A stretch of 20,000 nt of DNA, taken from the IMG/VR virus record IMGVR_UViG_3300027969_000094; one strand, given 5' to 3'. The translations under genes were made by a program, and so were the position numbers. The DNA is from an uncultured virus (IMG/VR IMGVR_UViG_3300027969_000094) (taxonomy: Duplodnaviria > Heunggongvirae > Uroviricota > Caudoviricetes). A model generated the notes under the pieces. The model was not told where the DNA came from. It worked only from the letters and a program-made list of their open reading frames with translations, and searched no databases. Of this stretch, positions 10,997-15,070 are shown one piece after another (position 1 is the stretch's first letter; each line of letters begins with the position of its first letter).

Positions 10997-11021
10997 AATT
11001 AATCTCCAAAAAAAGTTAAGA

Positions 11022-11045
11022 TGAGTTAGGGAAAACCCTAACTCA
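11022..11045 (-). promoter_or_regulatory. Perfect 10-bp intergenic stem-loop (possible weak terminator, processing or stability hairpin)
   Basis: TGAGTTAGGG-TTTT-CCCTAACTCA on the minus strand. The T7 tract lies 7 nt downstream rather than adjacent. Confidence 0.65.
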
Positions 11046-11054
11046 CAAGATTAA

Positions 11055-11507
11055 TTAAGTATTGCCAGTGCAAAGAACCATTTGGCTTGCAGCCCAAGGA
11101 GCGTCAGGATTACCGTTGCCGCCGTACTCAACAGCATAGCCAGCAGGTAAAACAACGCCATCTGCGTCCAAGTTAACACGTTGGAATACGCCAGCAGATG
11201 TCTGATAACCAGCTAAAACGTGGGCAACTGCGCCATAGTTCAAAATAAAACCACGTAGACCAGCATAGTTAGGATCTGCGTTAGTAATGCTAAAGGCTTG
11301 ACCGTTGGTTGTCTGTACTAAAGGCAAAGTTAAAGTAACTTCACTAGCAGGACCGCCATCAGCAGGTGAAAGAATAAGGACTTGTGAACCAGCAGTAATA
11401 GGAATTACGTTGCTGTATTGGGCAGCTAACGCTGAAGTAATGTAAATAATAGGCTGTGCAAAACCGTTAAGCGATCTGACGGGGCCTGTAAAAGTGGTAA
11501 ATGCCAT
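11055..11507 (-). CDS. Putative capsid-associated (decoration / head fibre-like) protein
   Basis: 150 aa from the ATG at 11507 (MAFTTFTGPVRSLNGF), with an AAGGA RBS. First gene after the major capsid gene. Confidence 0.7.
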   Translation of the reverse strand: MAFTTFTGPVRSLNGFAQPIIYITSALAAQYSNVIPITAGSQVLILSPADGGPASEVTLTLPLVQTTNGQAFSITNADPNYAGLRGFILNYGAVAHVLAGYQTSAGVFQRVNLDADGVVLPAGYAVEYGGNGNPDAPWAASQMVLCTGNT

Positions 11508-11519
11508 GATAAATTTTCC

Positions 11520-11592
11520 TTCATACAAAGTTCAGCTTATTAGTCTTGTATGCGTCTGCTGGGGCAGTCTAATAAGCGGGTAACACCCAGAT
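11520..11592 (-). ncRNA. Structured cis-RNA element downstream of the major capsid gene (candidate Mu-gpT-DE-like motif)
   Basis: Three interleaved complementary pairs: CTGGG/CCCAG (11590-86 with 11563-59), GCTTATTAG/CTAATAAGC (11577-69 with 11543-35) and CATACAA/TTGTATG (11552-46 with 11528-22). The position matches my recollection of the Mu-gpT downstream element; not verified by search. Confidence 0.65.
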
Positions 11593-11611
11593 ATTTAAAT
11601 CTTACTACAAA

Positions 11612-11640
11612 TAAAACAAAAAGGGGGGATTTCTCCCCCC
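11612..11640 (-). terminator. Rho-independent terminator after the major capsid gene
   Basis: GGGGGGA-GAAA-TCCCCCC stem with a GNRA loop, followed by TTTTTGTTTT, 5 nt after the capsid stop codon. Confidence 0.9.
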
Positions 11641-11645
11641 AATTT

Positions 11646-12554
11646 TTAGGCTCCTTGGGAACCCCACATACCTAGTGGATCTGACCAGCCAAAGCTATAA
11701 CGCTCACGAGACTTGTAACGTACGTTACCTGTATCGAAGTCACCATCCATAGAATTCTGGAGTGGTGTACGAACGAAATGCTTCATACCGTTTGGAACAT
11801 CAGTTGTCAAGAACCATGCGTTTGTGTCGGTCAAGAAGTGGTTAATTGTGTAACCTTCTGGAATCGAGCCATTGTTCTTAATTGCGTTGATGTCGTTATC
11901 AGCTGTACCAACACGCAGTTCAGTTTCGAGCAAACGAGTTGCAACGAACTGTAATGATGGAGGGACAATCATCTTCTTAGGTTTAGCAGCGATCAACAAT
12001 GAACGCTCGTCAGTCCACAAAGAGATTTGAATAACAGCGGCTTCCAAAGAAGTCTCATTCAAGTCTGATGGGGTTGCTGGGATGTTACTGTTGGTACCAC
12101 CAGAAACCAATGGGTGATCGTTAGCAAACAATGCAACACCGTCACCACCTGGGTAGCTAGCGTTAAAGCCATTGTTGATAACAGCAGCACCACGAACTTG
12201 CTTGGTATACGCCATGGAACGAGCTAAAGCCTTGGTATAACGAGCAGACAATGAGTCATACAAGTTATCTTCAATTGCTTCTTCGGTCAGAGAGAAACCC
12301 TGAGCGATCGTTACGTGTGTATAGCGAGCAGTCCATGCTTCTTGCCCGTTGTCATAAGCGATTGCGGAGCCTTCGTTTTTAACTGGGGCAGCACTAAAGC
12401 CAGACAATTTGGTTTCTTCTTCGAAGGAACGCTCAGAGGATTCAGTTTCGTAAATCTCGTTAGTTTCTTCACCATACTTTGCATACTCAAGTCCGAACAA
12501 TGCGTTCAAGCCTGGGAGCAACTCTTTCAGTAGTTGTGCGCGTGAAATAGCCAT
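11646..12554 (-). CDS. Major capsid protein (Mu gpT-like, HK97 fold)
   Basis: 302 aa with LLPGLNALFG.EY, K.EG.AI.YD, F.LTEEA.EDNLY and DGDFDTGNVRYK.RERYSFGWSDP patterns. Strong RBS and a downstream terminator; lies downstream of the portal and scaffold genes. Confidence 0.9.
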   Translation of the reverse strand: MAISRAQLLKELLPGLNALFGLEYAKYGEETNEIYETESSERSFEEETKLSGFSAAPVKNEGSAIAYDNGQEAWTARYTHVTIAQGFSLTEEAIEDNLYDSLSARYTKALARSMAYTKQVRGAAVINNGFNASYPGGDGVALFANDHPLVSGGTNSNIPATPSDLNETSLEAAVIQISLWTDERSLLIAAKPKKMIVPPSLQFVATRLLETELRVGTADNDINAIKNNGSIPEGYTINHFLTDTNAWFLTTDVPNGMKHFVRTPLQNSMDGDFDTGNVRYKSRERYSFGWSDPLGMWGSQGA

Positions 12555-14650: not shown

Positions 14651-15070
14651 CTAGATAAATTTGCGTTTAATGCCGCGTGGGTCTTGTACAACAGCTTCCA
14701 CGGAGTCGTCATTAATTATGCGGAACTCACGGTCATGTATAACTAGACGTGTGCCCGCGTTTGGTCGAACCAGAATAAAGTCGCCCTTTTTGCACCAAGG
14801 CCCAGTTGGATAGCGCTCAGGATCTTTATAGCAATCTTCACCTAAGTCAACTACAAATAGAACAGTGGTTAAAAGTTCATCAGTTCTAATTAATTCATCA
14901 GGTTTAAGAATGCCAGACTCAAACTCTTTTTCAACTTCGGGAATAGCACAAAGTATTCTGTAGCCTTTCGGTGTAGGAAGTTGTTTGGCTCTTTCTTCTA
15001 CTTCTTTATTCAATATTGCACTTAAATCTACTGCTCTGGTTAAATCTACCGCTGTCTGTTGGTCACTCAT
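14651..15070 (-). CDS. groES: GroES/Cpn10-like co-chaperonin
   Basis: P.GYRIL...E....SGI..P mobile-loop region, V.LG...Y, KKGDF.L....GT...I......IINDD.V.AVV, all matching the Cpn10 pattern. Confidence 0.8.
   Translation of the reverse strand: MSDQQTAVDLTRAVDLSAILNKEVEERAKQLPTPKGYRILCAIPEVEKEFESGILKPDELIRTDELLTTVLFVVDLGEDCYKDPERYPTGPWCKKGDFILVRPNAGTRLVIHDREFRIINDDSVEAVVQDPRGIKRKFI

What the first reader, a model, noticed from the sequence alone, without database searches (positions are those of the whole stretch)
11507..11600. Compact, probably double-pseudoknotted RNA between the capsid terminator and the next RBS
Seen: the minus strand reads CTGGG-TGTTACCC-GCTTATTAG-ACTGC-CCCAG-CAGACG-CATACAA-GA-CTAATAAGC-TGAACT-TTGTATG-AAGGA. 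Three perfect complementarities occur in interleaved order (P1a,P2a,P1b,P3a,P2b,P3b; 5, 9 and 7 bp), giving two chained pseudoknots in about 70 nt. P3b ends directly against the AAGGA Shine-Dalgarno of the 11507 gene. Alternative hairpins (GGGT-GTT-ACCC and CTGC-CCCA-GCAG) compete with P1, which suggests a switch. Known (from memory): a metagenomic RNA motif of unknown function, Mu-gpT-DE, occurs downstream of Mu-gpT-like capsid genes. Inference: this is a riboswitch-like or protein-binding translational control, a processing or self-cleaving element, or an exonuclease block that sets post-capsid gene stoichiometry.
Basis: partly seen in the sequence, partly recalled or inferred. Interest (0 to 1): 0.8.

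Follow-up and report, generated by a model that had tools for sequence, protein, structure and literature searches.

The report
Double-pseudoknot leader RNA before capsid-spike gene
A small, tightly knotted RNA fold sits at the very start of the message for the gene that follows a phage's capsid gene, is kept by hundreds of lake and ocean phages, and most likely tunes how much of that surface protein is made.

Summary
On the minus strand, 11590-11522, the three interleaved helices exist (P1 5 bp, P2 9 bp, P3 6-7 bp), plus a fourth, Px (CUG/CAG), whose loop carries the 3' strand of P1. The fold recurs in 72 of 80 loci found through the capsid protein and in many more phage contigs, once per genome. 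Covariation is strong: 92.5% of cells paired against 64.7% in shuffles, and 22 of 24 pairs show double changes. No Rfam family matches it.

It is not a capsid 3' element. It is the 5' leader of the next gene, a hypervariable beta-sandwich protein, possibly a capsid spike or cement protein. A -10-like box ends 7-9 nt before P1 in 115 of 155 instances. The Shine-Dalgarno starts 0 nt after P3 in 89 of 124.

In related Roseobacter phages the same slot holds Mu-gpT-DE (RF03012). That motif shares the junction nucleotides and pairs with the ribosome-binding site, but the models do not cross-detect.

Best reading is a cis-acting leader that sets translation initiation and mRNA stability. A conserved alternative hairpin (P0, 85 of 156) hints at a switch whose trigger is unknown. 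I consider ribozyme and exonuclease-block readings unlikely.

The parts
11623..11640 (-). Intrinsic terminator of the capsid gene (GGGGGGAGAAATCCCCCC followed by a T run)
   Evidence: 7-pair stem, 6 GC pairs, T run; sequence.
11599..11604 (-). -10-like hexamer TAAGAT, ending 8 nt before P1a. The -35 is poor in this window (1 of 6).
   Evidence: A TANNNT hexamer ends 7-9 nt before P1a in 115 of 155 instances (72 at exactly 8). The window's own promoter score is only 5 of 12, and the consensus scan found none.
11586..11590 (-). P1a (CUGGG), 5' strand of pseudoknot helix P1; predicted to lie 1-2 nt from the transcript's 5' end
   Evidence: Variants: CUGGG/CCCAG, CCGGG/CCCGG, CCGGA/UCCGG, CCAGGA/UCCUGG, UAGGGU/ACCCUA, CCAAG/CUUGG. 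Also CUAGG/CCUAG and CUGUA/UACAG in HTVC027P.
11578..11585 (-). J1/2 linker (UGUUACCC). Its ACCC can pair with GGGU of P1a to form the alternative local hairpin P0.
   Evidence: P0 of at least 4 bp occurs in 85 of 156 instances, against 6.1 expected from shuffles (maximum 15). It covaries with P1a.
11569..11577 (-). P2a (GCUUAUUAG)
   Evidence: RNAalifold finds P2 on its own; all 9 pairs show changes on both sides.
11568..11568 (-). Invariant junction A between P2 and Px
   Evidence: Invariant in A1; A:100 of 100 in A2.
11556..11567 (-). Px hairpin, CUG-[C CCCAG]-CAG. The loop 11563-11559 is P1b.
   Evidence: The middle pair reads UA:73, AU:22, CG:4, GC:1.
11553..11555 (-). Conserved junction ACG between Px and P3
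   Evidence: A 98, C 87 / U 13, G 91 of 100. Part of the sample was pattern-selected; A48 is at least 90% in the unselected A1.
11546..11552 (-). P3a (CAUACAA). Six pairs are conserved; the seventh is not.
11544..11545 (-). Conserved junction GA before P2b
   Evidence: A at 11544 is invariant; G 87 / A 13 at 11545.
11535..11543 (-). P2b (CUAAUAAGC)
11529..11534 (-). L3 loop (UGAACU) crossing P2. The CU is conserved in this subfamily but not in the CUAGG or HTVC027P subfamilies.
11522..11528 (-). P3b (UUGUAUG), ending directly against the Shine-Dalgarno
   Evidence: The gap from P3b to the SD is 0 nt in 89 of 124 instances, an overlap of 1-3 nt in 19, +1 in 14 and +3 in 2.
11517..11521 (-). Shine-Dalgarno AAGGA
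11055..11507 (-). Controlled gene: a 150-aa hypervariable beta-sandwich protein, possibly a capsid spike, cement or decoration protein
   Evidence: AF2 model with pLDDT 88.1. The best PDB match is the Pa223 capsid spike 9ny6_C at E 6.9e-3, which is weak. The gene in the same slot of DSL-LC04 is annotated 'cement protein'. Only the N-terminus is shared among loci.
11021..11046 (-). Terminator closing the one-gene unit
11646..12554 (-). Upstream major capsid gene (Phage_capsid_4 / Mu-like gpT)

Best explanation
This is the 5' leader of the mRNA for the gene that follows the capsid gene. About 70 nt fold into a compact double pseudoknot. P2 encloses a small hairpin, Px. The loop of Px pairs with the first nucleotides of the transcript (P1). 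A segment inside P2's loop pairs with the stretch just 5' of the Shine-Dalgarno (P3).

Shown here: the four helices, their covariation, one copy per genome, a fixed position after a -10-like box, and the fact that P3 abuts or overlaps the Shine-Dalgarno.

Inferred: the fold acts in cis on this one message. It tucks the 5' end into a helix, which would protect it from RNases that depend on a free 5' end. It also puts a rigid helix against, and in some relatives on, the ribosome-binding site, which would set how readily 30S subunits start. Expression of the capsid-surface protein would then be set independently of the capsid protein.

About half of the family can instead pair the 5' strand of P1 with a nearby copy of its partner (hairpin P0). 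This gives two exclusive states and hints at a switch. The trigger is unknown. I put about 40% on some effector, with a protein more likely than a metabolite, and the rest on a constitutive tuning element.
For: - Covariation of all four helices. P1 and P3 were not in the model that made alignment A2.
- 86 G-U cells favour the gene-sense strand.
- 72 of 80 capsid-linked loci carry the motif. There were 100 hits in 100 sources, one each, and one copy each in 3 of 4 near-complete genomes.
- The motif stays directly before the SD and ATG of the variable gene, even where other ORFs are inserted after the capsid gene.
- A -10-like box ends 7-9 nt before P1a in 115 of 155 instances. A full sigma-70-like promoter (at least 9 of 12) occurs in 32 of 155, against 4.0 in shuffles, and 27 of those 32 have 8-nt spacing.
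- The SD starts 0 nt after P3b in 89 of 124 instances and overlaps it in 19. P3b is the SD itself in L155 and in L203/L038, and overlaps the SD in HTVC027P.
- P0 is present in 85 of 156 instances, against 6.1 expected, and covaries with P1a.
- In CRP-901/902 the positional counterpart, Mu-gpT-DE, has its 3' helix strand in the SD and a segment complementary to the start codon.
- Junction nucleotides are conserved.
Against: - No experiment bears on function.
- In this window and most of the long form the SD itself is unpaired, so repression by pairing is not evident.
- P0 is absent from 71 of 156 instances.
- The window's own promoter is weak (5 of 12). The consensus scan found none. Metatranscriptome contigs bridge the capsid 3' end, the motif and the ORF, so read-through RNA or carried-over DNA cannot be told from a leader-initiated RNA.
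- The minimum-free-energy nested fold of the window is not unusual (z -1.09). Pseudoknots are not modelled there.
- Much of the sample is related, and 40 of the 100 rows of A2 came from a pattern that fixes Px and part of P1b.
Confidence: 0.6

Rival explanations
1. A small-molecule riboswitch. The junction of P2, Px and P3 binds a metabolite, and binding stabilises P1 and P3 over P0 and changes access to the ribosome-binding site.
For: The fold is compact with invariant junction nucleotides. It has an exclusive alternative hairpin. The pseudoknot's 3' strand lies at or on the SD, as in known pseudoknot riboswitches (the comparison is from general knowledge).
Against: - No Rfam riboswitch matches.
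- The controlled gene is a hypervariable virion-type protein with no metabolic link.
- The SD is unpaired in most instances.
- The L3 loop is not conserved between subfamilies.
Confidence: 0.12
2. A self-cleaving ribozyme or RNase processing site that cuts the message between the capsid gene and the next gene.
For: Double pseudoknots with about ten conserved nucleotides are typical of small ribozymes, which are common in phage metagenomes (general knowledge). Contigs from RNA libraries bridge the capsid gene and the motif.
Against: - No match to any Rfam ribozyme.
- The strand order differs from HDV-like ribozymes: P1b lies inside the Px loop and there is no P4 (by inspection).
- A -10-like box directly in front leaves little to cut off.
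- The fixed contact with the SD points to translation.
Confidence: 0.04
3. An exonuclease-resistant block (xrRNA-like), or a purely protective 5' cap structure without any effect on translation.
For: The 5' end is drawn into a pseudoknot, or into P0, within 1-2 nt of the predicted start.
Against: A block against degradation coming from upstream is not needed if transcription starts at the motif. The fixed junction of P3 and the SD is not explained by protection alone.
Confidence: 0.1
4. A cis-acting RNA that modifies RNA polymerase (put-like processive antitermination), so that transcripts started here read through the terminator after the variable gene into the later structural genes.
For: The element lies directly after a promoter. 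Terminators follow the variable gene in the window (11046-11021) and in many loci.
Against: Many loci have no terminator after the variable gene. The tight link to the SD and the pairing with the ribosome-binding site in relatives are not expected for a polymerase-binding RNA. There is no resemblance to the two-hairpin put RNAs (recalled).
Confidence: 0.05
5. A DNA-level feature, such as a recombination boundary of the swapped gene cassette, rather than an RNA.
For: The downstream gene is swapped as a cassette. Contigs diverge from the window at 11513 and 11522, at the 3' edge of the motif (table 7).
Against: Compensatory changes keep four helices, and 86 G-U cells are compatible with one strand only. 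Neither is expected for a DNA site.
Confidence: 0.02

Closest known systems
Mu-gpT-DE RNA motif (Rfam RF03012; orphan, typed 'sRNA')
   Same: - It occupies the same slot: after the Mu-gpT-like capsid gene and its terminator, and immediately before the next gene, whose product starts M-A-x-(S/T)-T-F-x-G-P.
- A -10-like box lies 8-9 nt upstream.
- The layout is the same: an enclosing helix, a single A, a hairpin that opens C-W-G and closes C-W-G, then A-C-R, then a 6-nt strand that pairs downstream at the translation start region, then (N)GA, then the 3' strand of the enclosing helix.
- The two forms replace each other among related phages: HTVC023P carries the long form and CRP-901/902 the short form.
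   Different: - Mu-gpT-DE has 53 positions, against about 70 nt here.
- Its outer helix is 4 bp and contains the SD, against 9 bp well upstream of the SD.
- Its inner hairpin is 5 bp with a conserved GCAU loop, against 3 bp with a loop that pairs with the 5' tail (P1, which is absent from the short form).
- Its downstream pairing covers the start codon rather than the stretch before the SD.
- There is no cross-detection. RF03012 gives no hit on the window at E<=10 and 10.8 bits on one relative. R1 gives no hit on CRP-901/902. An nhmmer profile of 106 short forms scores 0 of 156 long forms at 8 bits or more.
Pseudoknotted translational operators in 5' leaders (phage T4 gene 32 leader; E. coli rpsO and alpha-operon leaders). 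Recalled, not tested.
   Same: A pseudoknot at or next to the ribosome-binding site of the controlled gene, at the 5' end of the message.
   Different: Those bind a known protein, which is the gene's own product. Here no partner is known, and the downstream protein is hypervariable apart from its N-terminus. The Rfam Alpha_RBS family and others did not match.
5'-terminal stem-loop mRNA stabilisers (the ompA leader type). Recalled.
   Same: The first helix starts within about 2 nt of the predicted 5' end.
   Different: Those are simple hairpins. Here there are four covarying helices and conserved junction nucleotides.
HDV-like and twister double-pseudoknot ribozymes
   Same: Small size and two crossing helix pairs.
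   Different: The strand order differs (by inspection). There is no Rfam match. This RNA is locked to a promoter and an SD.

Membership tests
Mu-gpT-DE (RF03012) | Score at or above the family's gathering cut-off (49 bits) with the Rfam covariance model | tested here: not met
   There is no RF03012 hit on window 11350-11800 at E<=10, none at gathering threshold in the window, and none in 19 related loci at E<=1. A relative's motif scores 10.8 bits (G003). As a positive control, CRP-901 and CRP-902 score 72.3 bits.
Mu-gpT-DE (RF03012) | Lies downstream of a Mu-gpT-like major head gene | tested here: met
   The capsid ORF 12554-11646 matches PF10124 Mu-like_gpT (E 8.8e-8) and PF25209. The motif starts 56 nt after its stop.
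Mu-gpT-DE (RF03012) | 4-bp outer helix whose 3' strand (CAGG) runs into the SD, and a 5-bp inner hairpin with a conserved GCAU loop | tested here: not met
   In the window the outer helix P2 is 9 bp and ends 13 nt before the SD. The inner hairpin is 3 bp with loop CCCCAG (against the consensus).
Mu-gpT-DE (RF03012) | Junction nucleotides: A after the outer 5' strand, AC(R) after the hairpin, and (N)GA before the outer 3' strand | tested here: met
   The window has A11568, ACG 11555-11553 and GA 11545-11544. These are conserved in the family and present in the RF03012 consensus.
Any curated Rfam family (riboswitches, ribozymes, leaders) | Covariance-model match | tested here: not met
   Only sub-threshold matches appear, on the terminator or coding flank, and none over 11590-11522.
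Double (chained) H-type pseudoknot | Two pairs of crossing helices, each helix supported by compensatory changes | tested here: met
   P1 crosses P2 and Px, and P3 crosses P2. 22 of 24 pairs show changes on both sides. The three-dimensional feasibility of the loop lengths is inferred, not modelled.
HDV-like ribozyme | Strand order P1-P2-P3-L3-P3'-P1'-P4-P2', with cleavage at the 5' edge | tested here: not met
   Here P1' lies inside the loop of the small hairpin and there is no P4. No Rfam HDV family matches. Cleavage itself cannot be tested with these tools.
Riboswitch (general) | Ligand-dependent structural change that controls expression | not testable with these tools
   Only indirect features were found: conserved junction nucleotides, the alternative hairpin P0, and contact with the SD.

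The most novel reading that the evidence does not exclude
The long form found here and the orphan Mu-gpT-DE motif are two versions of one phage leader family. That family would be a true two-state translational switch, toggling between P0 and the pseudoknot. The trigger would be a phage or host factor, for example unassembled capsid or spike protein, or a metabolite, and the switch would time or dose synthesis of the capsid-surface protein. This would give Mu-gpT-DE its first function and add a new effector-sensing double-pseudoknot class that is present in cultured pelagiphages.
Probability: 0.3. Interest if true: 0.8.

Novelty: new variant of a known kind. Interest (0 to 1): 0.62.

Why it matters
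The RNA is abundant in lake and ocean phages, including cultured SAR11 phage HTVC023P, yet no Rfam model finds it. It is unusually well supported by covariation for its size. Its position reinterprets the 'downstream element' of Mu-gpT genes as the 5' leader of the next gene, a fast-evolving protein that is possibly on the capsid surface. If the leader is a switch, it would show how phages that use host promoters set the dose or timing of a single virion component. Even if it is constitutive, it is a compact natural module (promoter, knotted leader, ribosome-binding site) for stable, high expression. It also offers a clean model for a 5'-end-capturing pseudoknot.

Tried and rejected
- Rfam at gathering threshold and in E-value mode found nothing over the motif. 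The weak PrrB/RsmZ match (22.4 bits against a cut-off of 44) lies on the capsid 3' end and terminator.
- The nested minimum-free-energy fold of the window has z -1.09, which is uninformative because pseudoknots are not modelled.
- I tested whether the J1/2 linker is an anti-SD that P1 releases. Mean best complementarity was 3.10, against 2.92 and 3.09 in two nulls, so I rejected the idea.
- Sequence homology between the short and long forms was not detectable. nhmmer scored 0 of 156 long forms at 8 bits or more, against 1 of 1560 decoys. The covariance models do not cross-detect.
- The consensus promoter scan of the window found 0 sites.
- tblastn of the 150-aa protein against phage records found no match.
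- Foldseek against the PDB found nothing at E<=0.001, so the 'capsid spike' reading is only a lead.
- The pattern scan of genome contigs gave 1 real motif among the 80 loci fetched (L209). The other 79 were chance matches.
- The RNA runs are contigs only and show no starts, ends or strand.
- I could not check whether the motif is among the >10,000 candidates of PMC10690425. Its alignment archives could not be read, and its tables held no motif string.
- The supplement of PMC5737381, which describes Mu-gpT-DE, could not be read.
- The marginal R1 hit in the Alcaligenes phage (15.6 bits) shows no motif on inspection.

Full report
**What is in the sequence.** On the minus strand the capsid gene (12554-11646) matches PHROG 371 'major head protein', Pfam Phage_capsid_4 and Mu-like_gpT. 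It ends in a strong terminator at 11640-11623.
- P1: CTGGG 11590-11586 with CCCAG 11563-11559.
- P2: GCTTATTAG 11577-11569 with CTAATAAGC 11543-11535.
- P3: CATACAA 11552-11546 with TTGTATG 11528-11522.
- AAGGA follows at 11521-11517, and the ATG at 11507.

In 5000 shuffles of the 84-nt stretch, 45 had a perfect stem of 9 bp or more, and none had the interleaved arrangement. The nested minimum-free-energy fold alone is unremarkable (z -1.09), which is expected when the main features are pseudoknots.

**Conservation and covariation.** A search with the capsid protein returned 80 IMG/VR loci with 82-93% identity.
- nhmmer found the motif in 61 of them.
- A covariance model (R1) that contained only P2 and Px raised this to 72 of 80. 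Of the other eight, some loci end soon after the capsid gene (L016, L069), and L050 has only a weak match.
Six of these were judged false on inspection.
- R1 gave exactly one hit in each of 100 sources, about 300 kb in total. It gave one copy each in 3 of 4 near-complete 58-66 kb genomes.

On alignment A1 (62 sequences), 91.6% of cells pair against 66.3% in shuffles (0/500 reach it). The covariation score is 0.703 against 0.226, and slid partners give 22-39%. On A2 (100 sequences), 92.5% pair against 64.7%, and 22 of 24 pairs have changes on both sides. P1 and P3 were not part of the model that made A2. RNAalifold finds P2 and Px on its own. P1 has at least 5 contiguous Watson-Crick pairs in 156 of 156 unique instances, with many compensatory versions. 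Eighty-six G-U cells fit only the gene-sense strand.

One caveat applies. The 40 pattern-derived rows of A2 have Px and part of P1b fixed by the search pattern. A1 has no such bias and gives the same picture.

**Corrected anatomy.** There is a fourth helix, Px (CUG/CAG), whose 6-nt loop is almost entirely P1b. P1 is therefore a pairing between the 5' tail and a hairpin loop. The 7th pair of P3 is kept in only 29 of 100 sequences. The unpaired nucleotides at the junction of P2, Px and P3 are highly conserved: A11568, ACG 11555-11553 and GA 11545-11544. The loop that crosses P2 is not conserved between subfamilies.

**It belongs to the downstream gene.** The motif always lies directly before the SD and ATG of the next substantial gene. 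This holds even where other ORFs are inserted after the capsid gene and in HTVC027P, where two small ORFs intervene. Three positional constraints stand out.
- A TANNNT hexamer ends 7-9 nt before P1a in 115 of 155 instances, 72 of them at exactly 8 nt. At most other offsets the count is 0-8, though one offset (13 nt) reaches 22.
- A full sigma-70-like promoter (at least 9 of 12) occurs in 32 of 155 instances, against 4.0 in shuffles. In 27 of those 32 the spacing is 8 nt. The predicted start is an A two nucleotides before P1a, found in 106 of 155 instances.
- The SD begins 0 nt after P3b in 89 of 124 parsable instances, overlaps it by 1-3 nt in 19, and lies at +1 in 14 and +3 in 2.

In divergent members P3b is the SD itself (L155 and L203/L038) or overlaps it (HTVC027P). 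The window has the -10-like TAAGAT at the canonical 8 nt but a poor -35 (5 of 12), and the consensus scan found no promoter. For this phage, read-through from the capsid gene therefore remains possible. Contigs from lake-water RNA libraries bridge 11389-11720 and 11545-11720. Contigs cannot show transcript ends or strand, and they may reflect DNA.

**The alternative hairpin.** The 5' strand of P1 can instead pair with the 3' end of the linker to P2, forming P0. P0 of at least 4 bp occurs in 85 of 156 instances, against 6.1 expected (maximum 15 in 200 shuffles). It covaries with P1a: CCGG/CCGG, CUGG/CCAG, CCAGG/CCUGG and CCAAG/CUUGG in L203. The window's GGGU/ACCC belongs to this class. P0 and P1 are mutually exclusive, which is the best hint of a two-state element. 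However, 71 of 156 instances lack P0. My idea that the freed linker acts as an anti-SD failed its test.

**The controlled gene.** Its products range from 55 to 246 aa and share only their N-termini: MAxTTFSGPV, MGFATHLGPW or MAVSTTQSIW. RNA-library contigs diverge from the window at 11513 and 11522, so the gene is swapped as a cassette at the motif's 3' edge. The window's protein has 144 homologues at E<=1e-5, and the 120 listed are unnamed or called 'hypothetical protein'. It models as a beta sandwich with pLDDT 88.1. Its best PDB match is weak: the capsid spike of phage Pa223 at E 6.9e-3, followed by tailspike and baseplate trimers. The gene in the same slot of DSL-LC04 is annotated 'cement protein' and is preceded by the motif. 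In the window the gene is closed by its own terminator.

**Relation to Mu-gpT-DE.** RF03012 is Mu-gpT-DE (PMC7657543, one passage read). It does not match the window or 19 relatives. It does match Roseobacter phages CRP-901 and CRP-902 at 72.3 bits. There it lies between the gpT-like capsid gene and a gene starting MATSTFSGP, and the model ends in the SD and the AUG. Pelagibacter phage HTVC023P carries the long form instead (56.4 bits).

The two forms share the same layout: an enclosing helix, an A, a hairpin that opens C-W-G and closes C-W-G, then A-C-R, a 6-nt strand, (N)GA, and the 3' strand of the enclosing helix.

In 106 unique short-form instances, the 6-nt strand is complementary to U and G of the start codon plus the second codon. 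The four core pairs are kept in 101, 105, 106 and 101 of 106 sequences. One pair switches from G-C (91) to C-G (10) when the second codon changes.

Statistically, however, the forms do not detect each other. I therefore treat them as positional counterparts and probable distant relatives, at roughly 55-60%. The window's RNA does not meet the RF03012 membership criteria.

**Mechanism.** Position and anatomy argue for a cis-acting leader that works at the 5' end and at the ribosome-binding site. I commit to this at 0.6. The mechanism splits about 40:60 between an effector-driven switch and a constitutive element that stabilises the message and tunes initiation. Ribozyme, exonuclease-block, antiterminator and DNA-site readings are each weakly supported, for the reasons given under the rival explanations.

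**Novelty.** Library searches found no paper that holds both 'pelagiphage' and 'pseudoknot'. 'Mu-gpT-DE' and 'RF03012' occur only in the CaCoFold paper and its preprint. The motif may be among the unnamed candidates of PMC10690425 (passages read; tables searched; alignment archives unreadable). The supplement of PMC5737381 could not be read.

Noticed in passing
L206:2930-2990 (Roseobacter phage CRP-902) and L332-L451: Rfam types Mu-gpT-DE (RF03012) as an sRNA, but it looks like a 5' leader. The model ends in the SD and AUG. Its cUAGCCA segment is complementary to the start codon plus the second codon in 101-106 of 106 unique instances, with a G-C to C-G switch in 10. A -10-like box lies 8-9 nt upstream.
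   Followed up: partly
window 11055-11522 (-); L001-L200: The gene after the capsid gene is a swapped cassette. The leader and the first roughly 10-20 codons are conserved, and the rest is hypervariable (55-246 aa). RNA-library contigs diverge from the window at 11513 and 11522.
   Followed up: partly
L065, L066, L006, L002 and L204:3430-3460: In several relatives the -35 hexamer of the leader's promoter (TTGTGC or TTGCAA) lies inside the loop of the capsid gene's terminator hairpin, so the terminator and promoter overlap.
   Followed up: no
L012, L040, L051, L070, L072 (downstream of the capsid stop): Extra ORFs with N-termini such as M..IYKIINVVNNKFYVG are inserted between the capsid gene and the motif. 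They look like GIY-YIG homing endonucleases (recalled motif, not tested). Each has its own promoter-like sequence and a small hairpin.
   Followed up: no
window 11615-11749 (-): There is a sub-threshold PrrB/RsmZ match (22.4 bits against a cut-off of 44; E 0.0034) over the capsid 3' end and terminator. It is also seen in L001. It is probably chance, from GGA-containing hairpins plus a terminator.
   Followed up: no
window 14651-15070 (-): A GroES-like co-chaperonin gene (PHROG 3188, E 8.5e-9) lies between the portal and capsid genes. The equivalent genes of DSL-LC04 and HTVC027P are annotated the same way.
   Followed up: no
L171:267-382: One instance carries an insertion in the loop between P2b and P3b, with CCCC and GGGG flanking P3b. 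These could form a hairpin that competes with P3.
   Followed up: no
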